DNA of 64,000 nt from Thalassocella blandensis (GTDB taxonomy: Bacteria > Pseudomonadota > Gammaproteobacteria > Pseudomonadales > Cellvibrionaceae), in contig CAMCXE010000001.1 of assembly GCA_945882995.1 (NCBI GenBank), positions 2,084-66,083 on the forward strand, given 5' to 3'. This document shows, piece after piece, positions 14,124-52,550 of the stretch; the first letter of the stretch is position 1; each line of letters starts with the position of its first letter. The notes beneath the pieces are model-generated. The model saw only the letters and a program-made list of their open reading frames with translations, had not been told where the DNA came from and made no database searches. A program made the position numbers and the translations under genes.

Positions 14124-14470
14124 TAATTACGCGCTCCTCGGTCAAAACGGTCGGAGGTTTTCAGGAGAGATAACCCGAAAAATCCGCTGGCTTCTTTGGC
14201 CATGAAAAACTTTTCACTTAACCAGGTTTCATAATATTTTTGGCGAATGGATGCGATCCAATTCAGCGCCAAAAACAACAAACCCAAAAACAGCAGCAGA
14301 CCCAATATTATCCCGATCATCAACTTGCCAATGGCAATGCCGATGATCACACCGATAAATAAACCCACCGTCATGGACAAAATCGTAGCAACCACAATTT
14401 CATTGCCGGTGCAGTCCATGTACACCATGGGTTCGCTATTCACGGCATCGGCTAAACGGTCATCAAGCAT
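14123..14470 (-). CDS. Conjugative transfer region membrane protein (TIGR03750-like)
   Basis: 115 aa with two long hydrophobic helices (IVVATILSMTVGLFIGVIIGIAIG / IILGLLLFLGLLFLALNWI). Confidence 0.5.
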   Translation of the reverse strand: MLDDRLADAVNSEPMVYMDCTGNEIVVATILSMTVGLFIGVIIGIAIGKLMIGIILGLLLFLGLLFLALNWIASIRQKYYETWLSEKFFMAKEASGFFGLSLLKTSDRFDRGARN

Positions 14471-14496
14471 CTGGGTCTCCCGCTGTTTCGACTAAC

Positions 14497-14931
14497 TTAC
14501 GCAATCATGCCGCTAATCCAAGTGGCGAAGGCAATAATGGCAATCACCACAATCACGTTGCCCACCACTTCACCCACTACATCACCCCATTTGCCATCTT
14601 CTTCACGGCGCACTTTGTTGATGGATTTCGCGGTGTTTTTAACCAGAATTAAACCGCCGATAATTGCCGATAACCACAAGACGATTTTGATAATGAATTT
14701 AAAAATGGCCACAAAAATATCCACAGGGTCAGAAGTACCATCGACACCCGGCACATCCACCGAAGGCAAATCAAAATCGGCGGCAATGGCGCCATTGCAT
14801 AACAATCCGGCACCCACTAACAGGGCGCAGGTGCGCCAGCTAAGCAGCCCTCGGGCACGGGAAGCCGTGCGCACCAGCGCGCTTTTTGAGGTAGATAAAA
14901 ATTGTTGAGTGTTGGTGGTGTTGGTGTTCAT
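14497..14931 (-). CDS. ICE membrane protein (PFL_4702 / TIGR03745-like), candidate pilin-like subunit
   Basis: 144 aa with a long signal/leader followed by two TM helices. Position in the operon fits. Confidence 0.45.
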   Translation of the reverse strand: MNTNTTNTQQFLSTSKSALVRTASRARGLLSWRTCALLVGAGLLCNGAIAADFDLPSVDVPGVDGTSDPVDIFVAIFKFIIKIVLWLSAIIGGLILVKNTAKSINKVRREEDGKWGDVVGEVVGNVIVVIAIIAFATWISGMIA

Positions 14932-14941
14932 AGCTAATCCC

Positions 14942-15208
14942 CTAGGAGTGAGAGTGATAAAAAATTAAGGTCATAAAAAATAAAATCAAAATAACGCGCA
15001 GCGGTAAAGTAATAAGATCCAAAGGATCATGGTCTATGGAGCGGTGCTGGTAATCATGCCAGGCTGAAAAAATCACTTTCAGAAGGGCCATCGCCAGCAC
15101 AATAATCAGCATCCATGCAAATACCTTAAACATATAAGATGGTTCTTTGGATGTGCTCGCAGGCCCACTCAATGCCTGGGTAAAAGCCGCTCGCGTTCCC
15201 GGATTCAT
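14942..15208 (-). CDS. ICE membrane protein (PFL_4701 / TIGR03758-like)
   Basis: 88 aa with two TM helices. Position in the operon fits. Confidence 0.45.
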   Translation of the reverse strand: MNPGTRAAFTQALSGPASTSKEPSYMFKVFAWMLIIVLAMALLKVIFSAWHDYQHRSIDHDPLDLITLPLRVILILFFMTLIFYHSHS

Positions 15209-15222
15209 CGTGGCGCGATCCC

Positions 15223-15552
15223 TTAGTGCGAATATTCTGAATTTAAGGGTTCGATGCGTCGCGGTGAGCGCGAAGGTTTTTCGAGGTGATTAGCAATGGC
15301 TTGCTGCATCGCCGTTAAATCACTTTGCAAGGCTTGATAATCAAACTGCACCCGTGCGTCTTTTTCGCTCGCGGCTGCGGCTTGTGTGGCCAGCACTTGC
15401 AGATTGTTAATCTCTTTAATAATCGCCAGTAATTGGCGGCGCTCAGCTTCGGTAACACCATCACCGGCAAAGGCGGGGCAGATCAACGCACCCAGAGCCA
15501 AGGCCAGGGCGGATTTTTTCAGGGACGGAAACGGCAGGAATCGCATCTTCAT
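15223..15552 (-). CDS. RAQPRD-family integrative conjugative element protein
   Basis: 109 aa secreted protein. The C-terminal KPSRSPRRIEPLNSEY sits where the family RAQPRD motif lies, and the preceding helix LLAIIKEINNLQVL...DYQALQSDL fits my memory of the family. Confidence 0.6.
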   Translation of the reverse strand: MKMRFLPFPSLKKSALALALGALICPAFAGDGVTEAERRQLLAIIKEINNLQVLATQAAAASEKDARVQFDYQALQSDLTAMQQAIANHLEKPSRSPRRIEPLNSEYSH

Positions 15553-21437: not shown

Positions 21438-21878
21438 ATGACCGATACCGCTACCTACCCATCGCACACACTAAACACCAACCAATTCGACGCCAGCCTT
21501 CAGGCGGTGTTAATTACCCTGAACAAAACCGAATGGCTAGCGCCACTCACGCGCATTGCCCGCAATTTTGATGGGGTACCGCCACTGGGTGACATACCCA
21601 TTGATATAGAGATGATCAGCATGCTGTGGTCGCTGGTGGAATCCTATAAAACCGACCCAGATTTGCCCCACGAAACCCTGGCTGCCATCCGTTTTTGCAA
21701 ACTCCTCAATTTCACTGTGCGCGCCAGCCATCCCATCCCCGGCGGCCATAGTTTTTGGAATCCGCTGGAGCAAAGTTTTGCCAGCTTCAAAACGCCCGTC
21801 ACCCGCCTGAGCCAGTCCGGTGACGCCTATCCGCCGGAAGATATTATTAAGCGTTGGGCGCGGGATAATCTGCTGTAA
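21438..21878 (+). CDS. Hypothetical protein, first gene of the relaxase operon (possible relaxosome accessory protein)
   Basis: 146 aa ORF ending 8 nt before the relaxase ATG. No recognisable motif; the role is inferred from position only. Confidence 0.45.
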   Translation: MTDTATYPSHTLNTNQFDASLQAVLITLNKTEWLAPLTRIARNFDGVPPLGDIPIDIEMISMLWSLVESYKTDPDLPHETLAAIRFCKLLNFTVRASHPIPGGHSFWNPLEQSFASFKTPVTRLSQSGDAYPPEDIIKRWARDNLL

Positions 21879-21885
21879 TCTCGCC

Positions 21886-24252
21886 ATGAGTAAAAACACC
21901 CTCCTGCGCGATTTACGCGAACGCCTAGGCAAACTGACAGCCAATAGCGTCGCCACGACGAAAGCCAGCGATGAACCATCCTCGGTGATCCAGGATTTAC
22001 ACGCACTGCCCATTCTCCGCGCTAGCGCCTTACTTGAACGCTTCGGCATTGCCGCCACACTAGACGCATGGCGCACCTTGGCGGGCTTGGACGATAGCGT
22101 TTTCAATGCGCTCATCCAAGACCCTTTCTACCGCTATGCCGAAGCGGTACAGATGGCCCCCGCGTCCGAATCGCACCACCATGCGGGACCGGGCGGCTTA
22201 TTGCTGCACACCTATGATGTGATCACCCTAGCCCTGCAGAAACGGCGCGGCCTGCAATTGCCCATCGGCGGCACCCTGGAGCAAATTGGCAAGCAGCGCC
22301 ACCTGTGGACCTATGCGGTTTTTGCGGGTTGCCTGCTCCACGATATTGGCAAGCTCATGTCCAGTATCCGCATTACCGCCAAAACCAAAACCGGCGATGA
22401 GCGGCCCTGGTCACCCCAAGATGTTCCGCTGCCCGAACAAAAAGATGTGGTGTCTTACCGCATTGAGTTTGTGAAAACACCCTATTCCTACCACGCTCAG
22501 GTGGCCCTGTGTAATTTTGACCTACTACCTCAGAATGGCCGGGCTTGGCTGGCCCGCAACACCCTGATCATGATGCAGCTCTGCGCCCATTTACGCGGCG
22601 ACCGCTACGAAAGCGGCGCACTGGGTGAAATTGTGGAGTCTGCTGATATGACCTCCACCGCCATGAACCTGAAAAAACCCATCCCGCAACGCTTTAGCCA
22701 CGCACCCAGCGTCATCGAGCGGTTTATTCACATCATCCGCCACTGGATTGCAGAGGGCGATATTAAGCTCAACGTGAATGGCGGCATGGGCTGGGTAGGC
22801 AAAGACGGCTATGTGTATATCGTCTGCCGGACACTGGCCAATAAACTTATTGGCTACTGCGACGATATGGCCATTACCGACCTGCCACGCGATCCCGTAA
22901 GAATTTATGACATCCTCCAAGAACACGACTTGGCGCAGTCCACCCCGGATAACAAAGCTATCTGGAACATGAAAATTAGCAGCCTCGACCCCGAGTACAC
23001 CCATTACCTCACCTGCCTGAAATTTGAAATGCGGCGCTTGTGTGTACCCACCCGAATCCCGGCCGCATTTAAAGGTGAGATCGAAGTGGTGGAAGCGGGT
23101 ACCGCGACAAAGAAAGCAAGCCCACCAACCACTGGAAAACCCAGCGAGGACGCTGCAAACACCCCAACAGAAACACAGGAAACCGCATCCACACAGGATG
23201 CTGAATCAAATGGGGGGCAGGCAAAAACTCAGGAAGCTGCGCCGAAAGGCGCTGAAGAAAAAACACAAAAATCTGCACCGCTAGGTGCAGCAGAAAAAAC
23301 ACCGGAAGCAGAAGCCAACCCGGCGCTCGCCATACTCAAGGCCGCTGCGAACAAGCGCCGGGGTAAAAACACACAGGAATCTGCACCGAAAGGTGCGGAA
23401 GAAAAAACACTGGAACCTGCGCCGAAAGGCGCTGAAGAAAAAATACAAGCACCTGAAACCCACACGCAGGAAGCTGCGAAACAACAGGACGCTGCAAAAA
23501 AATCCCCCCCAGCACCCGCGCAGCGGGATAACAACACAGCGGATACTGAGGTATCCAGCGAGGACGCTGAAGAAACGACAATCGAGGAAACTGCACCGGT
23601 ATTTCGGGACGACATTGAGGAGCCCGCACCCTATCGGGCACCTGACGAAAAAACTCAGGAACCTGCGCCGAAAGGCGCTGAAGAAACACCGGAAGCTGCG
23701 CAGAAGGCGCAGGAGGATGAAAAAAATTCACTAGCCGCAAAAAACCAGACACATGAAGCTGGCGAGGATGTGGAAAAGCCCAAGGAAGCTGCGAAGAAAT
23801 ATTCCCGCTACACCGTATCCGGCGAGCCGCTACCGGAAAAACTCACCATGGAGAACAAGCAACTGGCTCACTTTTTTATACCCTGGTTACGCGCCAACAT
23901 GAAAAACAAAACCATGGCCATGAGCGCCCCTGGTGCTCAAATCCATTTTGTGGAGGCCGGCGTTTTTTTGGTGGCACCAGCGATTATGAAATCATTTTTA
24001 TCTGTACATGGGATGGACGGGGAGGTTCATCACGCCACCTTTAGCAAGCGGTTCGCTCGACTACATATACATATTAAATGCCCACCGCTAGGCATCAACG
24101 TACACCAATATTTCACTGTGAATAGCAAGGGCACGACGACAAAGCCATTAACTGGATGGATAGTGCCATACAGCCTCTTCTTTGATGCGGGCGAGACACT
24201 ACCAACCCCCAACCCACACCTAAAAAAGACGGTAACACTGGGTCAAAAATAA
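21886..24252 (+). CDS. traI: MOBH-family conjugative relaxase TraI (HD domain)
   Basis: SESHHHAGPGGLLLHTYDV and CLLHDIGK HD-domain signatures typical of PFGI-1/SXT-class relaxases. Start placed at ATG 21886 (MSKNTLLRDL). Contains an acidic Lys/Glu repeat linker at 23140-23700. Confidence 0.8.
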   Translation: MSKNTLLRDLRERLGKLTANSVATTKASDEPSSVIQDLHALPILRASALLERFGIAATLDAWRTLAGLDDSVFNALIQDPFYRYAEAVQMAPASESHHHAGPGGLLLHTYDVITLALQKRRGLQLPIGGTLEQIGKQRHLWTYAVFAGCLLHDIGKLMSSIRITAKTKTGDERPWSPQDVPLPEQKDVVSYRIEFVKTPYSYHAQVALCNFDLLPQNGRAWLARNTLIMMQLCAHLRGDRYESGALGEIVESADMTSTAMNLKKPIPQRFSHAPSVIERFIHIIRHWIAEGDIKLNVNGGMGWVGKDGYVYIVCRTLANKLIGYCDDMAITDLPRDPVRIYDILQEHDLAQSTPDNKAIWNMKISSLDPEYTHYLTCLKFEMRRLCVPTRIPAAFKGEIEVVEAGTATKKASPPTTGKPSEDAANTPTETQETASTQDAESNGGQAKTQEAAPKGAEEKTQKSAPLGAAEKTPEAEANPALAILKAAANKRRGKNTQESAPKGAEEKTLEPAPKGAEEKIQAPETHTQEAAKQQDAAKKSPPAPAQRDNNTADTEVSSEDAEETTIEETAPVFRDDIEEPAPYRAPDEKTQEPAPKGAEETPEAAQKAQEDEKNSLAAKNQTHEAGEDVEKPKEAAKKYSRYTVSGEPLPEKLTMENKQLAHFFIPWLRANMKNKTMAMSAPGAQIHFVEAGVFLVAPAIMKSFLSVHGMDGEVHHATFSKRFARLHIHIKCPPLGINVHQYFTVNSKGTTTKPLTGWIVPYSLFFDAGETLPTPNPHLKKTVTLGQK

Positions 24253-24519: not shown

Positions 24520-25464
24520 ATGTCAAAAATAATCGGAGTCATTTGCACCAAAGGTGGGGTCGGTAAGACCACCACTACCGCTAACCTCGGCGCTATATTG
24601 GCCGATATGAAACAGCGCGTTTTGTTAATAGACGCAGATCCACAACAATCGCTATCGAGACTGTTTGAGATCCCCGCCCACACGAACGACGCTGATCCAC
24701 AACAAGCACTATCGCGGCCGTTCGAGATCGTAGCCCTCGCGAACTTTGGCTTGTCGCAACTCTACAAGTCCGCCAATCCCGCGCAGTGCATTTCCAAAAC
24801 CGGCATTTCAGGGCTGGATATTGTGCTCAATGACGATCCCAGCAGCGACGGCATCATCCCCGCATTTTTGCGGGAGTCATTTACGCACATTCAACACTTG
24901 AGGATTGCGCTCACTGCGCTTGAGGAACAGTACGACTACATACTGATTGACACCCAAGGCGCGAAGGGTATGGTCCAGGAATCGGTGATTTTTGCTGCCG
25001 ACACACTGATCTCACCCATTCAGCCCAAAATTTTAGACACCAGGGAGTTTATCTGCGGGACCGTGGAGCTGGTCAACAAATTCAAGCCTCGCCCCGGCTA
25101 TAACACCATCACTGGACGCCCACTGCCGCCAATCAAGGTGCTGGTGAATATGTGGGATCGCACACTAAACAGCCAAGAAATTCTGCGCGTATTGCGTAGC
25201 CAGTTTGATCGGGAAACCGATGGTGCCATTACCGTACTCAACACCGTGATACCCGACCTATCGGTATACAGCGCCAGTTCCGGCAAAGGCCAACCCGCGC
25301 ACCGCGCTGAAGTGGCTCGCCGTGGCCCTACCCTACCCGCTTGCGACCTGATGATGAATCTGGTTCACGAGCTAGAGCCAAAGCTGTCCGATATAAAGCC
25401 AGACTGGCCGGGCAAGACCCGCGCACCAGCGGCGCTTGAGAGTGTGACCGGAGGTGCGCAATGA
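24520..25464 (+). CDS. parA: ParA/Soj-family partition ATPase
   Basis: Deviant Walker A motif CTKGGVGKTTTTANLG and IDADPQQS motif. Contains an internal 57-nt imperfect duplication. Confidence 0.9.
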   Translation: MSKIIGVICTKGGVGKTTTTANLGAILADMKQRVLLIDADPQQSLSRLFEIPAHTNDADPQQALSRPFEIVALANFGLSQLYKSANPAQCISKTGISGLDIVLNDDPSSDGIIPAFLRESFTHIQHLRIALTALEEQYDYILIDTQGAKGMVQESVIFAADTLISPIQPKILDTREFICGTVELVNKFKPRPGYNTITGRPLPPIKVLVNMWDRTLNSQEILRVLRSQFDRETDGAITVLNTVIPDLSVYSASSGKGQPAHRAEVARRGPTLPACDLMMNLVHELEPKLSDIKPDWPGKTRAPAALESVTGGAQ

Positions 25465-27164
25465 GCACCAACGATATGTCTAACCTTTTAAACCGGCCGC
25501 ACATCAGTGCTATGGGTGGCGCAACCAACGCAATACCGCCAGACCCAGCCGTTAAGACCCGTATTCGCGTCACGCTGGATAATTTGGTGCCATTTCACGA
25601 CAACCCACGCCAAAGCCGCAACCCAAACTACGAAGAGATTAAAGAGTCGATTCGCAATGCGGGCTTGCTTAACGCCCCCAACGTCACCCGCAAAAGCCCG
25701 GACCAGCAGTACATGATTAGGGACGGCGGAAACACCCGCTTGGAGATTCTTAACGAGTTATGGAGTGAAACCGGAGATCGCCGGTATTTTGAGTTCGACT
25801 GCGATTTTTACCCCTATCAAGATGAATTAACCATGCTGCTTCAGCACTGCATTGAGAATGAAATGCGGGGCGGGATGATTTTGATCGAAAGGGGGATGGG
25901 GGCTTCTAAGGCTAAGCAGCAACTGGAGCTGACGGAAGGGCCTCTTTCCAATGTTGCATTAGCCAAAAAACTGAAAACGTTAGGATGGTCAATCAACGAC
26001 CGTAGTCTCGGTATCGCGCTGTATGCTGTAGAAAAACTACTACCAACAATTCCTATCGCATTATGGGAAGGATTGGGAATTGACTCTGTAAGTAAGCTCC
26101 GCAAAATTATCGACGATTGCGGAACCTATTGGGTATCACTGGCAACTCTCGCCGCCAAAGATGAGGCAGAAATTGAATTTGAGGATATTTGGCAATCCGT
26201 TTTTGCAGCACTGGATAGTGAGTATTTTGACGTAGAAACCGCCCGCGACAATCTTGAGGCCGAGATTGCCGAGCGTATCGAATGCCCGCTGATGTCAGTG
26301 CGCGGCGAGATTCAAATGATCAGTAAAGGCTTATCGCAAGGCGGTAATAAGCCTACCAGCCTATTAACCGGTAGGGTTGATTCAGGTTTACCGGCGGCGC
26401 CCGCCACCTCCGCACCACCTAGGCCATCCAGTGCTCCACTTCAGCCCGCCACTTCCATTTTGGGTAGCGGCGGAGCTAGAGCCAACGAATCCGCACCAGC
26501 ACCAATGGCCGCAAAATCGCACCTCGGGCGTGGCGAACAGCCAGCGTATGAAGCGCCTGAGTACAAGCAGGAATTTCCGGGTAACAACTATCACGACCAC
26601 GACGAGGAGGGTGCGCAGGATGTGGTTTCTCAAATCCAACAGCCGCAAGCACCAAGTCAACCGCTAGCGACTGGTAATCCTTATCAATACACACCCACAG
26701 CACAACTGCAAGGCCGCGCCTATGAATTAGCCAAGCAGCTGGCCGAACACTACTGGTTTTCTGACTTACTGATTGATCCGAATGCAATTGGTTACGATCA
26801 GTTCCATATGGGATTTTTAATCGACAGGCCCAGCACCGCCCAACACAATGCAGATATGGCCTTTGAAGCCGGTAAGTTATCCGGACTGTACCAACACCTC
26901 TATTTTCTATCGGCATTACCCGCCACTATCAAACCTAATCTCATGAATAAATGGATGCAAACCGACTGGTTTAACGACTGGAAGAGTCCTGAACGCTCCG
27001 ATGTGCGCACCCTGAAGTTTTGGGTTGACCGCCTATTGATAACGGCCAGACCCTTTTCTTCGACCGGCGAGAGTTCTGACGAGTCCATAGCAATCGAAGC
27101 AATAACTTTAAGGTTATTGCGGGAGCTGGAGCCGATCATCGGCGAATTATCCCAGCGTTGCTAG
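25461..27164 (+). CDS. parB: ParB-like nuclease-domain protein (ICE PFGI-1-class ParB family)
   Basis: N-terminal ParB box region LVPFHDNPRQSRNPNYEEIKESIRNAGLLNAPNVTR...IRDGGNTRLEIL. Start overlaps the parA stop (ATGA). Confidence 0.7.
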   Translation: MSTNDMSNLLNRPHISAMGGATNAIPPDPAVKTRIRVTLDNLVPFHDNPRQSRNPNYEEIKESIRNAGLLNAPNVTRKSPDQQYMIRDGGNTRLEILNELWSETGDRRYFEFDCDFYPYQDELTMLLQHCIENEMRGGMILIERGMGASKAKQQLELTEGPLSNVALAKKLKTLGWSINDRSLGIALYAVEKLLPTIPIALWEGLGIDSVSKLRKIIDDCGTYWVSLATLAAKDEAEIEFEDIWQSVFAALDSEYFDVETARDNLEAEIAERIECPLMSVRGEIQMISKGLSQGGNKPTSLLTGRVDSGLPAAPATSAPPRPSSAPLQPATSILGSGGARANESAPAPMAAKSHLGRGEQPAYEAPEYKQEFPGNNYHDHDEEGAQDVVSQIQQPQAPSQPLATGNPYQYTPTAQLQGRAYELAKQLAEHYWFSDLLIDPNAIGYDQFHMGFLIDRPSTAQHNADMAFEAGKLSGLYQHLYFLSALPATIKPNLMNKWMQTDWFNDWKSPERSDVRTLKFWVDRLLITARPFSSTGESSDESIAIEAITLRLLRELEPIIGELSQRC

Positions 27165-27201
27165 GCCCAAAACCATTCATTTATGCAGGAGATAGGATTT
27201 T

Positions 27202-27747
27202 ATGCGTACAAACATGATCAATGGGCTGAATCGTGAAGCCCTGCTACTCTCGGTATCGGCATTAAAAAATGACGACACTCACTTAATCAACGAACTAGGC
27301 TTGCAACACCTTAGCGAAGGGGTAAGGCTCAAGATTGCCAAGCTGAGCTTACACCAAGTGTTGGTGGCCGCCGATTTTAGGGGGGCTCTTGCAGAGGTCA
27401 AAATCGTCCCGCGCCAGATGGAGTATTTTATCAACATGGCCACCAGTAAGTCAGAGGAAGACGCCATGATTGACGAGGCGATTGCCAGCGGTATGCGCCA
27501 GCCAGTACTTCAAGAGCTTAAAGGCACCACCCGCCGCGAGTACACCGCACGTCGCACCAAACTCAAGCTGCCAGAAAACCCTCGGGGTCGTATCGAAAAT
27601 CTCAGTGAAGATGATGAGCTGATAGTGCTCCGTAGTTGGCGCAAACACGCCGACATTAGTGACCCATTAGCGCGCTACCTGGCCGTGCATCATGAAACCG
27701 GCATCGGGTTGGATAGAGCCTACTTGGCCATCAACCAAACAAACTAG
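27202..27747 (+). CDS. Hypothetical ICE-conserved protein (DUF2857-like by position and size)
   Basis: 181 aa following parB, as in SPI-7/PAPI-1-type islands. The family assignment is from memory only. Confidence 0.4.
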   Translation: MRTNMINGLNREALLLSVSALKNDDTHLINELGLQHLSEGVRLKIAKLSLHQVLVAADFRGALAEVKIVPRQMEYFINMATSKSEEDAMIDEAIASGMRQPVLQELKGTTRREYTARRTKLKLPENPRGRIENLSEDDELIVLRSWRKHADISDPLARYLAVHHETGIGLDRAYLAINQTN

Positions 27748-27763
27748 CGGGGAATAATCAGTT

Positions 27764-29467
27764 ATGAGCACCTCCTCGTCAAGTCCGTTTGAGGCCATAA
27801 AACGCCAGATCGACCGTGCCGCCACCAATCTCATTGAGCAGCGCACAGGAGGTGGTGCCGGTGAAGAGGATGAAATTGCCGTCCTCTTCACCGGCAACTG
27901 GCACGACTCCATACCACGTCGCTTGATTGTTGATGATGTGTTGTCGCCGGTTGAAAAAATTACTTGGCAGGTTATCCGGCTCTCCGTGGTCAACCCATCG
28001 CAGCCGGGGTCGGCTCCGCGCCGTGCCGACCTTGCCAGACATATCAATTGCTCAGCCCCTACCGTCACCAACTCACGCAACATGCTGCGCATTCAACGCT
28101 GGATGACCTTCTGTAAGGCCGTGCGCAAGCAAGGGCGGTTTGTGGGTGAAATCTACCTATTACATGATGAACCGTTTTCACTGGCCACCACCCTTGAGGT
28201 CGATCCGTCTTACATTGAGTTTCTGGAGAAGACTGCTAGCAATGGCAACAAAAATAGCTCACTGCGCAAAGCCGCTGCTACCGAGCTAAAAGCCATTGAT
28301 GCCTTGCGTGGCGACATCAAGCCAGTCAACGAAGTTGAACAAATCGTCAATCGCATTAGTTGGGTGACCGCTAGAGAAATTGGTTACGGCGCGGGGCCGG
28401 GTAATGAGGACACTCCTGAGTCTCACCATGGAAAGATTCTTTCTATGGTGAGCAACCCTGCCAGCACCACGCCATTGGTTAATAAAAAACCTGATCAGGC
28501 TGCAACCAAGGAAACACCGCACCATGGAAAGATTCTTTCCATGGTTGAAGTTGATCAAAAAACGCTCCAGAGCAAAATTCTTTCTCCGGTGAACACCCCG
28601 GAAAATCACCAGAGAAAGAATCTTTCCATGGTGGAAAATGACCAGAGCAAGATTCTTTCCATGGTGGAAAAGTCAGTTAGTCAGTTGGTTTGTAGTAGTA
28701 GTTTATATATAAATAAAAATATTAATGCGCAGGCGGGCGCACACATGCAGGCGCACACAGGCACGCAGGCGCTCGTGCGCGTAGATGAGGCAATTGAAAT
28801 TCAGTCACCGCAGGTCGATCAGCTTGAGCAATTCGATCAAGTCGAGTTATGCGATCTGGACGAGTTTGAGGCCGACATGCTGGCGGCAGAGCGGGGTTTT
28901 GCTGAACTGGAATCACCAGCGGACACGGGTGGCCATCCAGCCAGCGCAGCCCGCAAAACCGGGGAGGAGGGATTTGACGCGGAAACCTTCGAGGATTTGA
29001 TGGATTACCGCCCGCAACACGCCCACTACGAAGACTTGGAATTGCTCGTAAAAACCTACTTGCCCGATATTGCCAGCCCTCGGATCAGTGAGTATGTGCG
29101 GTATTTGCTGGTGACACGTAAGGCTCAGATTCCGCGCATAGCGAGAATGGTTAAGCCTTTGCCGCCGCTGTACCGTAGGCACGTATTGTTTCAGCTGGTG
29201 AGCAAAGCAGCAGCGGATCGCAATGGTTGGTCGAAGGTCGAGCTGGGAAATTTAGCTAGCTACTGCGGCGCCCTCGTTGCAAGCCTGAAGCGCGGCGATT
29301 TTTACATGGACGAATTTGCCACCACATTGCTCGAAGCCGTTGTGGCAGACCGCGAGCCGTACATTCCGACCACAGCTGAAAAACGCGAGCAGTGGCAGTA
29401 CATGAACCTGCCGGACGGGCCGGATTATTACAAGGGGAAGCATTATGAGATTCCTGAGCAAGAGTAA
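27764..29467 (+). CDS. Putative island replication protein (STY4528-like), with embedded iteron / AT-rich module
   Basis: 567 aa. Position after parB and the DUF2857-like gene matches the SPI-7-family replication-protein slot. The middle of the gene carries five dyad-symmetric repeats and a 26-nt pure A/T tract. Confidence 0.45.
   Translation: MSTSSSSPFEAIKRQIDRAATNLIEQRTGGGAGEEDEIAVLFTGNWHDSIPRRLIVDDVLSPVEKITWQVIRLSVVNPSQPGSAPRRADLARHINCSAPTVTNSRNMLRIQRWMTFCKAVRKQGRFVGEIYLLHDEPFSLATTLEVDPSYIEFLEKTASNGNKNSSLRKAAATELKAIDALRGDIKPVNEVEQIVNRISWVTAREIGYGAGPGNEDTPESHHGKILSMVSNPASTTPLVNKKPDQAATKETPHHGKILSMVEVDQKTLQSKILSPVNTPENHQRKNLSMVENDQSKILSMVEKSVSQLVCSSSLYINKNINAQAGAHMQAHTGTQALVRVDEAIEIQSPQVDQLEQFDQVELCDLDEFEADMLAAERGFAELESPADTGGHPASAARKTGEEGFDAETFEDLMDYRPQHAHYEDLELLVKTYLPDIASPRISEYVRYLLVTRKAQIPRIARMVKPLPPLYRRHVLFQLVSKAAADRNGWSKVELGNLASYCGALVASLKRGDFYMDEFATTLLEAVVADREPYIPTTAEKREQWQYMNLPDGPDYYKGKHYEIPEQE
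28424..28667. repeat. Five copies of a dyad-symmetric ~23-27 bp repeat (consensus CACCATGGAAAGATTCTTTCCATGGTG); iteron candidates
   Basis: Copies at 28424-28450, 28520-28546, 28571-28591 (degenerate), 28613-28634 and 28646-28667. CCATGGAAAGA-T-TCTTTCCATGG is a perfect palindrome in copy 2. Confidence 0.85.
28689..28727. other. AT-rich tract (26 consecutive A/T at 28702-28727) inside a coding region; candidate DNA-unwinding element
   Basis: TTTATATATAAATAAAAATATTAAT in an otherwise balanced-GC gene, immediately 3' of the iteron-like repeats and followed by a GC-rich block with 3x GCAGGCG (28728-28790). Confidence 0.6.
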
Positions 29468-29494
29468 AAAAATAACCAGTCTGGTTGGTGACCG

Positions 29495-29566
29495 GTGTGC
29501 AAAAAATAACCAGCTCGATAGCCTATCGAGGTGTGCAAAAAATAACCAGCTCGATAGCCTATCGAG
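29495..29566. repeat. Perfect 36-bp tandem direct repeat (2 copies plus partial flanking copies), each containing the 17-bp palindrome CTCGATAGCCTATCGAG
   Basis: GTGTGCAAAAAATAACCAGCTCGATAGCCTATCGAG at 29495-29530 and 29531-29566. A partial third copy (GTGTGCAA) lies at 29567 and a partial earlier copy (AAAAAATAACCAG) at 29467-29479. Confidence 0.9.
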
Positions 29567-29575
29567 GTGTGCAAT

Positions 29576-29731
29576 ATGACATCCGATGACAGTAAGGCGG
29601 CGGCGATATTTGAGATAGCTTTCTCGGAATTTCGTGACCCGCGCAGCTTGGAGGTGCCGCAAGGGTGTGCTGGATGCGATGAAAGGCACCGATTGATTAA
29701 TGAGTACGCGGGCAAGAATCTTAGTGAATAA
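29576..29731 (+). CDS. Small unannotated ORF (51 aa), below the ORF-track cutoff
   Basis: MTSDDSKAAAIFEIAFSEFRDPRSLEVPQGCAGCDERHRLINEYAGKNLSE. GAGG lies 10 nt upstream of the ATG. Ends 17 nt before the next gene. Confidence 0.3.
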   Translation: MTSDDSKAAAIFEIAFSEFRDPRSLEVPQGCAGCDERHRLINEYAGKNLSE

Positions 29732-50631: not shown

Positions 50632-50792
50632 AATAAAAAGCTCCCTCAAAATGCTGAAACGGGAGCGCCCAATCTTCGGATTGGGTGGCATTAAACCTAA
50701 CAGGCGAAAGCCTTCACTCAACCCACTGGGGCAATTTTCCCAGTGGGGAAAGTTGTGTCTCCAGTGGGTTAATTTAATTTGGAGATACAACC
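50632..50792 (+). promoter_or_regulatory. Type C structured leader / intercistronic element, copy 1
   Basis: Nearly identical to 51904-52064. Hairpins GCUCCC...GGGAGC, CCCAAUC-UUCG-GAUUGGG, AGGC-GAAA-GCCU and CCCACUGGGG / CCCAGUGGGG / CCAGUGGG (alternative pairings), plus the SD stem 50755-50762 / 50781-50788. Confidence 0.7.
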
Positions 50793-51905
50793 ATGAATGT
50801 TACTACCAACTTCAACAAAATTACTGGATGTCACGTCTACAACGCGAAGCTTTATTTTTCAGCCATAGTGGCTTTTGAGCATTCCGCTTTGTTTAGGGTT
50901 GATGGCTCTATCGGGACACCAGAAACGGTGTCTGCAATGGTGGATTTTCTCCATGCTCTCGACACTGCACTAGGAGTCACCAATTCTGGATTTGTCGCAG
51001 TGTATGTGGTTCGGGGTATAGAGGCTTCCACCGACGTTTTTTACAGCCTGGAAAAGCAGAGACCCCGGGAAATCGGTGCTGGATTTGTAAGCCAGCTAGA
51101 GGATAGTGATCTTACTTGCGGAGTGTTTGTTAGCCCTGCAAGCGAATCCATTGGGTCTACTGATTACGATGAGCTTGTAATCTTCAACCCTGCCGGTCCT
51201 GTAACCATCAAACTCACCGATCAGGCGAGTGTGGTGGCCAAACTTGCAGAGCTGAGTGATTACGTCATTTTATCGACCACAGGCATGGCAAAAGATTTTG
51301 ACCGTGATGATGTGTTTGACGTGGTTGGGTATTTTGCGGCGAAAACTGGGCAACCGGTTGCAGTCGAAAGGCCCGCTGTTGTTGCTGAGGCTCCCTCACC
51401 AAAGGATATTGTCATCGAGTCAATAATCCCTAATGGAGAGCGTGTTTTTGCAATGGCGGTTTTTCCCAACGGTTATGCTCATGAGTCAGAGTTTGCCAGT
51501 GAGAGCGAGGCTCGCGGTTATGTGGCAACACTGAACACCATGGGTCAAGCGTCCAGAACTTGTGCCAATGATGCAGTTTCGGCGATGGATACAGCCAAGG
51601 TTGCGGTAAATCAGGCTCAGCCTAGGTTTATCCCGTGCTCCAATTCCGAGGTCGTAATTGATTGCGGAGGGCAGTGGTCTTTGGAGGTGTTGAAGTCTGT
51701 TTGTGCCAATGGTGCAATTTCCGAGGAGGATGCAGCCAAGCTCGCGGCAAAGTGTGCGCAAGCGGCAAAGCTGTTAACCGAGGTGGCTCAGGCAGTGACT
51801 TATGAAAATCTCAGTGAAATTTTAGGGTGGACTTCATCCTGGGTGATCGAGATGATCGAAGGTTTAACGGCCAGTGAGTTTACGAAGTTTCAGGCAGTGA
51901 AATAA
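50793..51905 (+). CDS. Hypothetical protein
   Basis: 370 aa with a GGAG SD 8 nt upstream. No recognisable motif. Confidence 0.55.
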   Translation: MNVTTNFNKITGCHVYNAKLYFSAIVAFEHSALFRVDGSIGTPETVSAMVDFLHALDTALGVTNSGFVAVYVVRGIEASTDVFYSLEKQRPREIGAGFVSQLEDSDLTCGVFVSPASESIGSTDYDELVIFNPAGPVTIKLTDQASVVAKLAELSDYVILSTTGMAKDFDRDDVFDVVGYFAAKTGQPVAVERPAVVAEAPSPKDIVIESIIPNGERVFAMAVFPNGYAHESEFASESEARGYVATLNTMGQASRTCANDAVSAMDTAKVAVNQAQPRFIPCSNSEVVIDCGGQWSLEVLKSVCANGAISEEDAAKLAAKCAQAAKLLTEVAQAVTYENLSEILGWTSSWVIEMIEGLTASEFTKFQAVK

Positions 51906-52064
51906 TAAAAAGCTCCCTCTAAATGCTGAAACGGGAGCGCCCAATCTTCGGATTGGGCGGCATTAAACCTAACAGGCGAAAGCCTTGACTCAACCCACTG
52001 GGGCAATTTTCCCAGTGGGGAAAGTTGTGTCTCCAGTGGGTTATTTTATTTTGGAGATATGACT
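51904..52064 (+). promoter_or_regulatory. Type C structured leader / intercistronic element, copy 2
   Basis: Starts at the stop codon of the upstream gene. Only a few mismatches relative to copy 1. Confidence 0.7.
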
Positions 52065-52550
52065 ATGGGTGTAGGTGTTTATTGGCAAGAAAATGCGTTT
52101 ACCGTGTTTGTTGATGATGAGGAGTTGTATGCTGAATACAGCATCGAAAAACAGCAGCACGAAAACATTGAGCATGACGACGACTACCAATCGTTGCACG
52201 AGGATTTTGTGCAAGAAGTCTTGGAGCTGTTGCCGGAATCGTATGAGGTATTAACCGATACTTGGGAGGGTGGTTACAGCTTCGGAGATGTATCGCGTCA
52301 AATACTGGCTGAAAACGGCTTCTATCGCGTTTCACTGGTAGATTGGCATGGTATGCAGGCGATCAATGTAGAGTTGCGTCAAGCACACTACAGCGATTCT
52401 TGGGAGTTTAATCCTTTGGCTGTGCATCATCATGGCCGAGCGGCCACGAAGATTTTTGATGCGTTAGCTGAGCGGTTTGCGTTGCGCGGCAGGACAAGTG
52501 GCTGGACTACCGGCTGTTATGTGAAATCAACCGAAAAACTTGCCGCCTAG
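52065..52550 (+). CDS. Hypothetical acidic protein
   Basis: Start placed at the second ATG (52065) to keep the 8-nt SD spacing seen in copy 1. The track start is 52059. Confidence 0.5.
   Translation: MGVGVYWQENAFTVFVDDEELYAEYSIEKQQHENIEHDDDYQSLHEDFVQEVLELLPESYEVLTDTWEGGYSFGDVSRQILAENGFYRVSLVDWHGMQAINVELRQAHYSDSWEFNPLAVHHHGRAATKIFDALAERFALRGRTSGWTTGCYVKSTEKLAA

What the first reader, a model, noticed from the sequence alone, without database searches (positions are those of the whole stretch)
28424..28790. Lambda-ori-like module (dyad iterons, pure A/T tract, GC-rich repeats) embedded in the putative replication-protein gene
The middle of the 567-aa gene contains five copies of a dyad-symmetric element. 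The best copy is CACCATGGAAAGATTCTTTCCATGGTT, whose core CCATGGAAAGA-T-TCTTTCCATGG is a perfect palindrome. Copies lie at 28424, 28520, 28571, 28613 and 28646.

They are followed by 26 consecutive A/T bases (28702-28727) and then a GC-rich block with three GCAGGCG and two GCGCACACA units (28728-28790). At the protein level the repeats read HHGKILSMV / QRKNLSMV. Strict DNA palindromy is not needed to encode a peptide repeat, so selection appears to act on the DNA.

Established parallel: phage lambda ori (four dyad-symmetric iterons followed by an AT-rich region) lies inside gene O, which encodes the initiator that binds them. RK2-type oriV also combines iterons, an AT-rich region and a GC-rich region. 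This suggests an ICE-borne origin, for an excised plasmid-like state, that the gene product itself recognises.
Basis: partly seen in the sequence, partly recalled or inferred. Interest (0 to 1): 0.7.

Follow-up and report, generated by a model that had tools for sequence, protein, structure and literature searches.

The report
Replication origin inside its initiator gene
The repeats are real DNA-level protein-binding sites plus an easily melted A/T stretch, sitting inside the gene of a DNA-binding protein on a conjugative element. This is most likely the element's replication origin, matching a 'putative oriV' already proposed but never tested for its relatives (pKLC102, PFGI-1, ICEHin1056).

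Summary
Five 27-bp dyads (28424-28666), a 25-nt pure A/T run (28702-28726) and a 72% GC block lie in the disordered linker of a STY4528-family gene (27764-29467).

Selection acts on the DNA. In 13 homologous genes, codon choice makes the units far more palindromic than synonymous recoding allows (z=16). The arms co-vary by amino-acid-changing compensatory substitutions. In pKLC102, ICEHin1056 and three plasmids the equivalent dyads sit in different reading frames. Dyad spacings all fall near n x 10.8 bp, so the sites share one face of the helix. The serines before the A/T tract use AGT in 47 of 56 cases, against 20% elsewhere.

The cumulative GC skew of the whole 64-kb window has its global minimum at 28,610, inside the array, and this does not depend on gene strand. 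No integrase and no other Rep gene was found.

The same layout was published as a sequence-based 'putative oriV' for PFGI-1, pKLC102 and ICEHin1056. In ICEclc the homologous palindrome did not recruit the ParB-like protein BisD.

Best reading (about 0.6): a lambda-O/ori-like vegetative origin bound by the winged-helix domain of its own gene product. Origin firing and self-binding are inferred, not shown. This is a new member of a known, untested kind.

The parts
27764..29467 (+). STY4528-family gene (567 aa), the candidate initiator. It has an N-terminal winged-helix domain, a disordered linker and a C-terminal helical domain.
   Evidence: The ORF is. NCBIfam NF040582 matches aa 40-228 at 121.7 bits, below the curated cutoff of 130. 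Synteny ParA-ParB-DUF2857-[gene]-AcaB/PFL_4669 is conserved in all homolog loci.
27881..28378 (+). N-terminal winged-helix-turn-helix domain (aa ~40-205), the predicted dyad-binding part.
   Evidence: In the AF2 model, 10-residue block means of pLDDT over this span run 52-93, mostly 75-93, with helices 62-73, 87-94 and 98-110 and a beta hairpin at 114-133. Foldseek gives weak hits to dimeric MarR-type wHTH proteins and primosome DnaB (E~0.03), and to phage HTH-domain proteins (E 3e-4).
28382..28858 (+). Disordered linker (aa 207-365) whose coding DNA carries the whole cis module.
   Evidence: pLDDT is about 30 throughout. Length and sequence are variable in alignment A1, apart from the repeats and the SSS..N.NINA motif.
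28424..28450 (.). Dyad 1, CACCATGGAAAGATTCTTTCTATGGTG (12 of 13 arm pairs).
28520..28546 (.). Dyad 2, CACCATGGAAAGATTCTTTCCATGGTT (perfect 12+1+12 core).
   Evidence: (I13)
28565..28591 (.). Dyad 3, CTCCAGAGCAAAATTCTTTCTCCGGTG (9 of 13, degenerate).
28607..28633 (.). Dyad 4, CACCAGAGAAAGAATCTTTCCATGGTG (11 of 13). It is in inverse orientation relative to dyad 1.
   Evidence: I1 (96% complementary to 28424-28451)
28640..28666 (.). Dyad 5, GACCAGAGCAAGATTCTTTCCATGGTG (9 of 13).
28693..28702 (+). (TAG)3 / (AGT)3 trinucleotide run, read as Ser311-313, directly abutting the A/T tract.
   Evidence: S311 and S312 are invariant in 22 homologs. AGT is used for 47 of 56 Ser codons in this run across 13 genes, against 60 of 300 elsewhere.
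28702..28726 (.). 25-nt pure A/T tract, the predicted DNA-unwinding element.
   Evidence: A/T content of this segment exceeds the codon-usage null across 13 genes (z=10). It is the lowest-GC point of the gene in the window and 13 of 17 relatives examined, and the lowest-GC point of the middle part of the gene in three more.
28727..28790 (.). GC-rich block (72% GC; 14-nt unit x2.4) bounding the A/T tract.
   Evidence: A GC-rich stretch with CGCGC/GCACAC motifs follows the A/T tract in 10 of 13 clade members.
28610..28610 (.). Global minimum of cumulative GC skew for the 64-kb window.
   Evidence: The effect of side is independent of gene strand.
29021..29413 (+). C-terminal helical domain (aa ~420-550). 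Its inferred role is a partner or helicase-recruitment domain.
   Evidence: 10-residue block means of pLDDT are 89-97 over aa 431-540 and fall to about 75-78 at the domain edges. It is conserved in A1. There is no Pfam or PHROG match, so the function is inferred only.
29467..29575 (.). Intergenic direct repeats: AAAAAATAACCAG x3 and a 36-bp unit x2.2. Each full unit carries the palindrome CTCGATAGCCTATCGAG. This is either the iteron-like half of the published 'putative oriV' or a promoter/operator of the downstream AcaB/PFL_4669 gene.
   Evidence: (D3, D5, I8). Equivalent arrays are found in relatives, with periods of 36, 38, 57, 58 and 100 bp, and 46 bp is reported for PFGI-1. Palindromic repeats also follow the gene in three plasmids. 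No such array was found in L007. The 16-mer GTRCAAAAAWTAACCA is shared with ICEHin1056.
25461..27747 (+). Upstream ParB-family (BisD-like, 25461-27164) and DUF2857 (BisC-like, 27202-27747) genes. These are context and the source of a rival binding protein.
   Evidence: ICEclc gene order from PMC7423338
29749..30720 (+). AcaB / PFL_4669-family gene immediately downstream. It is the landmark used in the literature to place the putative oriV.

Best explanation
The module is the vegetative replication origin (oriV) of a conjugative element of the pKLC102 / ICEclc / ICEHin1056 / SPI-7 family (MOBH relaxase, MPF_G transfer genes). It is embedded in the gene of its own initiator, as lambda ori is embedded in gene O.

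Proposed mechanism, with shown and inferred steps marked:
1. Five 27-bp dyads lie on one face of the helix (shown). Dimers of the N-terminal winged-helix domain of the STY4528-family protein encoded by the same gene bind them (inferred).
2. The resulting nucleoprotein array strains the adjacent (TAG)3 + 25-nt A/T tract. That tract is fenced by a GC-rich block and melts (inferred from the anatomy).
3. The conserved C-terminal helical domain recruits a replicative helicase. This would be host DnaB here, or the element's own DnaB paralog in ICEHin1056, pKLC102 and pPant4 (inferred).
4. Replication proceeds in both directions. This is supported for this element by the GC-skew V centred on the array.

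The sites can sit in a coding region because that stretch encodes a disordered linker. In this clade the linker tolerates whatever peptide the palindromes dictate (HQxKNLxPV).

The 36-bp direct repeats after the stop codon are probably a second, accessory part: either control iterons or the promoter/operator of the next gene.
For: 1. DNA-level selection.
- Forty-three peptide-defined units in 13 genes of 32-48% protein identity to the window protein in alignment A1 show 9.72 of 13 palindromic pairs, against 6.30 under synonymous recoding (z=16).
- Compensatory, amino-acid-changing arm changes (AGA/TCT, AGC/GCT, GGC/GCC, AGT/ACT, GGT/ACC) give 55 double-sided cells against 30.5 in shuffles (0 of 500). 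Slid controls give 1-11.
- Dyads in pKLC102, ICEHin1056, a Stutzerimonas plasmid, pPant4 and pSGI4 lie in different reading frames within one gene.
- Single copies are inverted, both in the window and in pKLC102.

2. Evidence for a double-stranded DNA protein array.
- All 36 inter-dyad spacings fall near n x 10.8 bp, with a mean cosine of 0.71. None of 5000 random sets of multiples of 3 reached this.
- The outer CC/GG and A11/T17 are invariant.
- There are no other copies in the 64 kb.

3. An unwinding element.
- The A/T tract exceeds codon-usage expectation (z=10), and the serines before it use AGT in 84% of cases against 20% elsewhere.
- It is the lowest-GC point of the gene in most relatives, and a GC block follows it.

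4. Protein architecture. A wHTH domain, a disordered linker and a helical domain.

5. Strand asymmetry.
- The cumulative GC-skew minimum of the 64-kb window is at 28,610.
- The effect of side is 0.051+-0.012 at all sites and 0.090+-0.016 at third codon positions, independent of gene strand. Eight of nine strand/side-discordant genes follow side.
- The maximum at 63,365 is about half of the 66.7-kb contig away.

6. No competing function in view. No integrase, tRNA or other Rep gene was found among ORFs of 150 aa or more. SSB and topoisomerase III genes lie just downstream.

7. Literature.
- The equivalent region was proposed as oriV in PFGI-1, pKLC102 and ICEHin1056.
- pKLC102 reaches about 30 copies per chromosome (PMC7685784).
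- The homologous palindrome of ICEclc (bisS-3 in orf96323) did not recruit the ParB-like BisD (PMC12409273).
Against: - No experiment shows origin activity or self-binding for any member of the family.
- In ICEclc, copy-number increase of the excised element needs the relaxase TraI and oriT1, which points to a relaxase-driven route.
- The skew V is not reproduced in pKLC102 (uniformly negative skew) or pPant4. It is only approximate in ICEHin1056 and the Stutzerimonas plasmid.
- The local skew step seen in 12 of 13 clade loci could reflect the composition of homologous genes.
- The protein has no sequence or confident fold match to a characterised initiator. There is no Pfam hit, no hit in the PDB sequence search, and Foldseek E-values are 0.03 or worse against PDB.
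- The NCBIfam score is below that family's curated cutoff.
- There is no DnaA box in the module.
- Spacing and unit statistics treat related arrays as independent, so the P values are optimistic.
Confidence: 0.6

Rival explanations
1. The dyad array is a non-replicative double-stranded DNA binding platform in the element's regulatory core. It could be an autoregulatory roadblock or operator for the parA-parB-DUF2857-STY4528 operon. It could also be a nucleation or centromere-like site for a partner other than the ParB-like protein, or an enhancer-type site feeding the BisDC-like activation cascade. On this reading the A/T tract serves bending rather than melting.
For: - The module lies in the operon that encodes the master regulators in ICEclc (bisD, bisC), and the next promoter lies just downstream.
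- Deleting orf96323-inrR lowered Pint reporter output in ICEclc.
- ICEclc replication is relaxase/oriT1-dependent.
- Phased dyads and co-evolving half-sites fit any dimeric DNA-binding protein equally well.
Against: - BisD did not form foci on the homologous ICEclc palindrome.
- An operator does not explain the codon-defying A/T tract with a GC fence that is conserved family-wide.
- It also does not explain the skew minimum inside the array.
- No sigma-70-like promoter is predicted in the module above background.
- The sites are absent from all other promoters in the window.
Confidence: 0.2
2. The dyads act as hairpins in single-stranded DNA after conjugative entry. They would serve as a single-strand initiation (priming) site or a single-strand promoter in the leading region, which also carries ssb and anti-restriction genes.
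For: - Base-pair-preserving compensatory changes are the classical signature of a hairpin.
- The region is followed by ssb and topoisomerase genes, and in homologs by anti-restriction genes.
- The element is conjugative.
Against: - Spacing locked to the B-DNA helical repeat argues for recognition of duplex DNA.
- Within one element, variant copies carry uncompensated changes, while differences between elements are concerted.
- The outer and central bases are sequence-invariant, not just paired.
- The palindromes are perfect, with a 1-nt centre and no loop.
- A hairpin model needs neither the A/T tract nor the skew V.
Confidence: 0.07
3. The module is the origin of transfer (oriT) used by the MobH relaxase encoded 3.5 kb upstream, and any replication from it is rolling-circle.
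For: - The relaxase gene is nearby in this window (21820-24252).
- oriT regions contain inverted repeats and A/T-rich DNA.
- ICEclc replication depends on relaxase and oriT1.
Against: - The module travels with the STY4528-family gene, not with the relaxase. In ICEHin1056, pKLC102 and the Stutzerimonas plasmid, mobH is about 7 kb, 15 kb and 44 kb away respectively along the circle.
- Rolling-circle replication predicts a uniform skew, not a V.
- I could not find the position of ICEclc oriT1 in the held papers, so this is not formally excluded.
Confidence: 0.04
4. The repeats matter as peptide motifs (short linear motifs in a disordered linker) or as mRNA hairpins, and the DNA palindromy is a by-product of how the repeat arose.
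For: In the window's clade the units are always in the same frame and give a recognisable peptide, [HD]Q.K[NIF][LF]..V.
Against: - Codon choice is pushed 16 SD towards palindromy.
- Arm covariation changes the amino acids.
- In five more distant relatives the dyads occupy different frames and encode unrelated peptides.
- One copy is inverted.
- There is no Rfam match.
- Common mismatches are A-C, not G-U.
Confidence: 0.03

Closest known systems
'Putative oriV' of PFGI-1, pKLC102, ICEHin1056, SPI-7 and PAPI-1 (Mavrodi 2009 PMC2647930; Juhas 2007 PMC2258188; Klockgether 2004, cited there but not held)
   Same: - The position is the same: inside or after the STY4528-family gene, immediately upstream of the PFL_4669-family gene.
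- The parts are the same: four or five copies of a 19-27-bp palindrome, then the A/T-richest stretch of the gene, then an intergenic array of direct repeats that each hold an inverted repeat.
- I verified this on pKLC102 and ICEHin1056 and on three further plasmids.
   Different: - The dyad sequence differs: CCAGAGAAAGA-N-TCTTTCTCTGG type here, against GAGTTCGGA-N-TCCGAACTC in the published elements.
- In this clade the dyads are kept in one frame and appear as peptide repeats.
- There are only 2.2 downstream repeats, against 4-16.
- No integrase is in view.
- A clear skew V is present here and absent in pKLC102.
- The published assignment was by eye, stated that no Rep was encoded, and was never tested.
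Phage lambda ori within gene O (established knowledge)
   Same: - Several dyad-symmetric initiator sites are followed by an A/T-rich region, all inside the initiator's own ORF.
- They lie in the segment that encodes the linker between an N-terminal DNA-binding domain and a C-terminal partner-binding domain.
- Replication is bidirectional.
   Different: - No homology to O was detected. The Pfam, PHROG and PDB sequence searches of the protein returned no replication-initiator family of any kind.
- The sites are 27 bp and spaced 33-96 bp apart, not close-packed 19-mers.
- A GC-rich fence and an extra intergenic repeat array are present.
- Binding and helicase recruitment are untested here.
ICEclc candidate site bisS-3 (CTTCGGAtTCCGAAG in orf96323) and the true bisS sites of the ParB-like CTP clamp BisD (Antar 2025, PMC12409273)
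   Same: - orf96323 occupies the same slot as the window's gene, after bisD (parB) and bisC (DUF2857).
- Its palindrome has the TTCGGAnTCCGAA core of the pKLC102-type dyads.
   Different: - bisS-3 did not recruit BisD.
- The functional bisS sites (GAGCTATCCCCnGGGGATAGCTC) lie in inrR and ssb, and are unlike the window's dyads.
Iteron origins of theta plasmids (RK2 oriV/TrfA, Rep_3 family; established knowledge)
   Same: Repeated initiator sites lie next to an A/T-rich unwinding region and a GC-rich stretch. Element-specific site sequences change with the initiator.
   Different: - The sites here are dyads, with one copy inverted, rather than same-orientation direct repeats.
- There is no DnaA box in the module.
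- There is no Rep_3/TrfA domain.
- The origin lies inside the coding sequence.
DnaA-box/DnaA-trio basal unwinding system of bacterial oriC (PMC8287927)
   Same: A run of three 5'-TAG-3' (3'-GAT-5') trinucleotides directly abuts the A/T-rich region. It is conserved by codon choice in the clade.
   Different: There is no DnaA box within the required 16 bp, or anywhere in 28000-29700. The polarity relative to the dyads does not match the oriC arrangement. This is a lead only.

Membership tests
pKLC102/PFGI-1-type putative oriV module | Lies in or after the STY4528-family gene, between the DUF2857 gene and the PFL_4669/AcaB-family gene. | tested here: met
   The same synteny is seen in 17 related loci.
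pKLC102/PFGI-1-type putative oriV module | Four or more copies of a roughly 20-27-bp palindrome within the gene. | tested here: met
   Five copies are present. pKLC102 and ICEHin1056 have four each.
pKLC102/PFGI-1-type putative oriV module | An A/T-rich segment directly after the palindromes. | tested here: met
   The 25-nt A/T run is at 28702-28726. The tract is the lowest-GC stretch of the gene in the window and 13 of 17 relatives, and of its middle part in three more.
pKLC102/PFGI-1-type putative oriV module | An intergenic array of direct repeats, each holding an inverted repeat, before the PFL_4669 gene. | tested here: met
   A 36-bp unit x2.2 with the palindrome CTCGATAGCCTATCGAG. There are fewer copies than in relatives.
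pKLC102/PFGI-1-type putative oriV module | The same dyad sequence (GAGTTCGGA-N-TCCGAACTC core). | tested here: not met
   The window's clade uses CCAGAGAAAGA-N-TCTTTCTCTGG. The architecture is conserved but the sequence is not.
pKLC102/PFGI-1-type putative oriV module | Supports autonomous replication. | not testable with these tools
   No experiment was found for any member. The only indirect support is the GC-skew minimum at 28,610.
STY4528 family (NCBIfam NF040582) | Scores above the curated cutoff of the family HMM. | tested here: not met
   121.7 bits against a cutoff of 130, and only aa 40-228 align, to profile positions 3-182 of 323. It is a divergent relative. tblastn links it to annotated members at 28-36% identity over the N-domain.
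Lambda O / ori-in-initiator-gene arrangement | Initiator sites and an A/T-rich region lie inside the initiator ORF, in an inter-domain linker. | tested here: met
   This is conditional on the protein being the initiator.
Lambda O / ori-in-initiator-gene arrangement | The protein belongs to the phage O replication-protein family. | tested here: not met
   The Pfam, PHROG and PDB sequence searches returned no phage replication-protein family.
Lambda O / ori-in-initiator-gene arrangement | The gene product binds the sites and recruits the helicase. | not testable with these tools
   There is only a phylogeny-confounded correlation between recognition-helix residues and the dyad core.
Iteron-type theta origin (Rep_3/TrfA class) | A Rep_3/TrfA-type initiator, plus DnaA box(es) beside the iterons. 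| tested here: not met
parS/bisS centromere of a ParB-family CTP clamp | Bound by the element's ParB-family protein. | not testable with these tools
   It was tested experimentally by others on the homologous ICEclc site and was negative (PMC12409273). The window's dyads do not resemble bisS or the chromosomal parS quoted there.
oriC basal unwinding system (DnaA boxes + DnaA-trios) | At least three NAN trios within 16 bp of a DnaA box. | tested here: not met
   The trios are present at 28693-28701. No DnaA box with up to 1 mismatch lies between 27437 and 34110. The definition is from PMC8287927.

The most novel reading that the evidence does not exclude
The STY4528-family gene with its embedded dyad array, TAG-trio/A-T tract and GC fence is a self-contained lambda-O-like replicon. 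It would make this integrase-less MOBH/MPF_G element a true theta-replicating plasmid.

Its specificity would diversify by coupled change of the recognition helix (SRN, SRE or ARQ variants) and of both dyad arms. That would create incompatibility-type lineages across the whole ICEclc/pKLC102/SPI-7 family.

The codon-enforced (TAG)n run would let the initiator hand the melted strand to host DnaA, or to a DnaA-like single-strand binder, without any DnaA box.
Probability: 0.2. Interest if true: 0.7.

Novelty: new member of a known kind. Interest (0 to 1): 0.5.

Why it matters
ICEs of the ICEclc / pKLC102 / SPI-7 / ICEHin1056 family spread antibiotic resistance, virulence and catabolic genes. How they persist and amplify when excised is unsettled.
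- pKLC102 reaches tens of copies per chromosome.
- ICEclc seems to rely on its relaxase.
- The 'oriV' drawn on maps since 2004 has never been tested.

This window gives that annotation an evolutionary footing. The sites are maintained by compensatory change against the genetic code. They are helically phased and are flanked by a codon-defying unwinding tract. In this element they coincide with a replication-type skew switch.

It also names a concrete candidate initiator, whose gene houses the origin. The result is a small, clonable and directly testable replicon. If confirmed, it would blur the ICE/plasmid boundary further and provide a typing marker (the dyad sequence) for this family.

Tried and rejected
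- Peptide-repeat explanation: rejected by the synonymous-recoding null and by the frame-shifted dyads in relatives.
- Known RNA element: no Rfam match beyond noise.
- Internal promoter or terminator: counts do not exceed shuffles, and nothing lies in the module on the + strand.
- DnaA boxes: none in 28000-29700.
- ParB/BisD centromere: the homologous ICEclc site tested negative in the literature. No bisS-like palindrome was found in the window's inrR/ssb region.
- Direct evidence that the protein is an initiator:
  - Pfam, PHROG and PDB sequence searches gave nothing.
  - Foldseek on the full-length model gave only generic winged-helix hits, primosome DnaB at E~0.03, and phage HTH proteins.
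- Nucleotide similarity of the module to any plasmid: none.
- Replicating the skew V in complete relatives:
  - It failed for pKLC102 and pPant4. pPant4 also carries a second Rep gene.
  - It was approximate for ICEHin1056 and a Stutzerimonas plasmid.
- Local skew step in 12 of 13 clade loci: not used as independent evidence, because the genes are homologous.
- Position of ICEclc oriT1 relative to orf96323: not found in the held papers.
- Organism of the window: the exact protein is in NCBI/ENA on a 66,693-nt contig without a name.
- The genome-contig scan returned only 6 loci, from Cellvibrio-like MAGs.


Full report
**1. What is in the sequence.**
The 567-aa ORF at 27764-29467 (+) carries five in-frame 27-nt dyad units, at 28424, 28520, 28565, 28607 and 28640. 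Copy 2 holds a perfect 12+1+12 palindrome. The 23-nt core with up to 3 mismatches occurs nowhere else in the 64 kb, and none is expected by chance. Copy 4 is 27 of 28 identical to the reverse complement of copy 1, but differs from copy 1 itself at 5 positions (I1). The array therefore contains an inverted copy.

That block holds three GCAGGCG and two GCGCACACA.

**2. Context.**
The gene sits in the conserved order:
- MobH relaxase (21820-24252)
- ParA
- ICE-type ParB (TIGR03764)
- DUF2857
- this gene
- AcaB/PFL_4669 family
- then SSB and topoisomerase III

This is the core of the ICEclc / pKLC102 / PFGI-1 / ICEHin1056 / SPI-7 family. In ICEclc the order is parA-shi-bisD(parB)-bisC(DUF2857)-orf96323-orf95213-inrR-ssb (PMC7423338).

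The gene's N-terminal 190 residues match NCBIfam 'STY4528 family pathogenicity island replication protein' at 121.7 bits, just under the curated cutoff of 130. tblastn links it to annotated members on pKLC102, ICEHin1056 and other plasmids.

An AlphaFold2 model built on 22 homologs shows three regions:
- a confident winged-helix domain (aa ~40-205);
- a disordered stretch (aa 207-365, pLDDT about 30) that corresponds exactly to the DNA carrying dyads, A/T tract and GC block;
- a confident helical C-terminal domain (aa ~420-550).

**3. Is selection on DNA or on peptide?**
All homologs found (at most 40% BLASTP identity to the window protein) carry a variable number of [HD]Q.K[NIF][LF]..V repeats followed by a conserved SSS..N.NINA.AR motif. 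I fetched the DNA of 12 such genes and ran four tests.

- *Synonymous recoding.* Units were defined from the peptide alone. Forty-three units show 9.72 of 13 complementary arm pairs, against 6.30 +- 0.21 when the same peptides are re-encoded with each gene's own codon usage (z = 16; no null replicate above 7.02).
- *Arm covariation.* The arms co-vary by changes that alter the amino acids: AGA/TCT, AGC/GCT, GGC/GCC, AGT/ACT, GGT/ACC. There are 55 double-sided cells against 30.5 in column shuffles (0 of 500), and 1-11 when the partner column is slid. Three column pairs carry most of it: 7-21, 9-19 and 12-16.
- *Reading frame.* In pKLC102, ICEHin1056, a Stutzerimonas plasmid, pPant4 and pSGI4 the equivalent dyads (GAGTTCGGA-N-TCCGAACTC type) occupy different reading frames within one gene. 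They encode unrelated peptides, and pKLC102 also has an inverted copy.
- *Serine codons and A/T content.* The serines before the A/T tract use AGT in 47 of 56 cases, against 60 of 300 elsewhere in the same genes. The tract is more A/T-rich than codon usage predicts (summed z = 10). A GC-rich stretch with CGCGC/GCACAC motifs follows in 10 of 13 clade members.

That criterion was tested and not met.

**4. What kind of DNA element?**
The 36 spacings between neighbouring dyads in 12 elements are 33, 42-45, 54-56, 66, 75, 84-87, 96, 105-108 and 120 bp. All are close to integer multiples of about 10.8 bp. The mean cosine is 0.71, and none of 5000 random sets of multiples of three reached it. Related arrays are not independent, so this P value is optimistic.

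Sites on one face of duplex DNA, invariant outer CC/GG and A11/T17, concerted between-element change with uncompensated within-element variants, and restriction to a single array all point to cooperative binding of a dimeric protein to double-stranded DNA. They do not point to RNA or single-strand hairpins.

The array is directly followed by the least stable DNA of the gene, fenced by GC-rich DNA. That is the standard anatomy of an initiator-binding region plus unwinding element.

**5. Independent evidence from strand composition.**
The cumulative GC skew of the whole window falls from 1 to 28,610, then rises to 63,365. The global minimum lies inside the dyad array. This is not a gene-orientation artefact:
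- The four + strand genes left of the array (relaxase, parA, parB, DUF2857) have negative skew.
- Four of the five - strand genes to its right have positive skew.
- In a length-weighted regression on 44 genes, the effect of side is 0.051 +- 0.012 at all sites and 0.090 +- 0.016 at third codon positions. The strand effect is 0.009 +- 0.012 and -0.081 +- 0.016 respectively.

The database contig that holds this exact protein is 66,693 nt. If it is circular, the skew maximum lies roughly opposite the minimum.

No tRNA, integrase or other replication initiator was found among ORFs of 150 aa or more, and the relaxase gene abuts parA. In integrated relatives, parA instead sits at the element's left end next to unrelated genes. 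The window's element may therefore live as a plasmid replicating bidirectionally from this module.

There are caveats:
- pKLC102 has uniformly negative skew, and pPant4 shows no relation.
- ICEHin1056 has its minimum 2.7 kb from the module, and the Stutzerimonas plasmid has its detrended minimum about 1.2 kb away. Both are only approximate.
- The local step seen in 12 of 13 clade loci may be a gene-composition effect.

**6. What is already known.**
- Mavrodi et al. 2009 described in PFGI-1 a 'putative oriV' of about 1,100 bp immediately upstream of PFL_4669. Its first half is A+T-rich with four copies of a perfect 23-bp palindrome. Its second half has four 46-bp direct repeats, each holding an inverted repeat. 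They also stated that no Rep protein is encoded (PMC2647930).
- Juhas et al. 2007 say the same kind of oriV is present in ICEHin1056, pKLC102, SPI-7 and PAPI-1 (PMC2258188).
- I confirmed on the sequences that in pKLC102 and ICEHin1056 the palindromes lie inside the STY4528-family gene and the direct repeats (57 bp x14, 36 bp x5) lie after it.
- The window has the same second half: 36-bp repeats x2.2 at 29494-29575, each with CTCGATAGCCTATCGAG. They even share the 16-mer GTRCAAAAAWTAACCA and the 36-bp period with ICEHin1056.
- Most other homologs examined have such arrays with periods of 38, 58 or 100 bp, or palindromic repeats after the gene. None was found in L007.

None of these assignments was tested experimentally in the papers I could read. 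pKLC102 is reported to reach about 30 copies per chromosome (PMC7685784).

**7. Rivals.**
- *ParB-type centromere.* The most obvious rival has been tested by others. In ICEclc the palindrome in orf96323 ('bisS-3', CTTCGGAtTCCGAAG) did not recruit mCherry-BisD. The true bisS sites lie in inrR and ssb (PMC12409273).
- *Non-replicative regulatory platform.* This remains possible (0.2). The module sits in the regulatory operon. Deleting orf96323-inrR lowered reporter output in ICEclc. ICEclc copy-number increase depends on TraI and oriT1 (PMC6561031).
- *Single-strand hairpin functions (0.07).* These fit the covariation but not the helical phasing, the invariant bases, the uncompensated within-element variants or the skew V.
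- *oriT (0.04).* This is unlikely because the module travels with the STY4528-family gene while the relaxase lies 7-44 kb away in relatives.
- *Peptide or mRNA function (0.03).* This is essentially excluded.

**8. Best explanation and its status.**
The best explanation is a vegetative origin embedded in its initiator gene, working like lambda ori/O (confidence about 0.6).

Shown:
- DNA-level selection on phased dyads
- a codon-defying A/T tract with a GC fence
- location in a disordered linker between a wHTH domain and a helical domain
- family-wide conservation of the layout
- a strand-independent skew switch at the array in this element

Inferred:
- that the gene's own wHTH domain binds the dyads
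- that the tract melts
- that the C-terminal domain recruits a helicase

The only hint of self-recognition is that recognition-helix variants go with particular dyad cores: SRN-MLRI with AGAAAGA, SRE with GGC/GGA cores, and ARQ with AGC/AGT-AAAA. This is confounded by phylogeny.

The protein is not a member of the lambda O, Rep_3 or TrfA families. Structural matches are generic winged-helix hits plus weak hits to primosome DnaB and phage HTH proteins.

**9. Verdict.**
The feature is a new, sequence-divergent member of a module already annotated as a putative origin in related elements.

Its value lies in three things. It gives quantitative evolutionary support. It identifies the host gene as the likely initiator. 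And the element appears to carry a replication-type skew centred on the module. Together these make a 20-year-old untested annotation directly testable with a 1.4-2 kb clone.

Noticed in passing
window 29467-29575: Just after the stop codon there are three copies of AAAAAATAACCAG and a perfect 36-bp direct repeat x2.2. Each full unit holds the palindrome CTCGATAGCCTATCGAG. ICEHin1056 has a 36-bp repeat in the same place with the near-identical 16-mer GTACAAAAATTAACCA followed by a different palindrome. That suggests one conserved and one element-specific binding site per unit.
   Followed up: partly
window 28693-28701: (TAG)3 on the + strand, read as Ser-Ser-Ser with AGT codons, directly abuts the A/T tract and is conserved by codon choice in the clade. 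It formally matches the DnaA-trio consensus 3'-GAT-5' of bacterial oriC, but there is no DnaA box nearby.
   Followed up: partly
window 50732-50755 and 52004-52027: The identical 24-bp palindrome CAATTTTCCCAGTGGGGAAAGTTG occurs twice, 1.27 kb apart. Each copy lies about 40-60 bp upstream of an ORF with no family match (50793-51905 and 52059-52550). Its TTCCC..GGGAA core recalls the ICEclc bisS site (ATCCCCnGGGGAT), so it is a candidate operator or ParB/BisD-type site.
   Followed up: no
window 23223-23447 and 24631-24744: The neighbouring genes also carry in-frame tandem DNA repeats. The relaxase gene has a 36-nt unit x6.2 (peptide APKGAEEKTQE-like). The parA gene has a 57-nt unit x2. These are not palindromic.
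   Followed up: no
window 1-64000 (relaxase 21820-24252 abutting parA 24520-25464): No integrase, no tRNA gene and no second replication initiator were found among ORFs of 150 aa or more. In related integrated ICEs, parA lies at the element's end and the integrase lies next to the relaxase. The window, which covers 64 of a 66.7-kb contig, may be a plasmid or an assembled circular form.
   Followed up: partly
window 28286-28609 (- strand): A 107-aa ORF on the opposite strand reads HRKNLSMV-like peptides. This is a mirror artefact of the palindromes and not evidence of a gene.
   Followed up: yes
window 27099-27120: The 22-bp palindrome GCAATAACTTTAAGGTTATTGC (11+11, one mismatch) lies at the 3' end of the ParB-family gene. 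Its role is unknown.
   Followed up: no
whole window: DnaA-box-like 9-mers (TTATCCACA with up to 1 mismatch) occur 26 times, against 12.8 +- 3.7 expected (0 of 100 shuffles). None lies between 27437 and 34110.
   Followed up: no
L012 (pKLC102 record 14,416-15,456): Fourteen or more tandem 57-bp repeats fill the 1-kb gap after the STY4528-family gene of pKLC102, each with the inverted repeat GGTGGTGCCACTGGCACCAC. The period of this downstream array varies widely between relatives (36, 38, 46, 57, 58 and 100 bp).
   Followed up: partly
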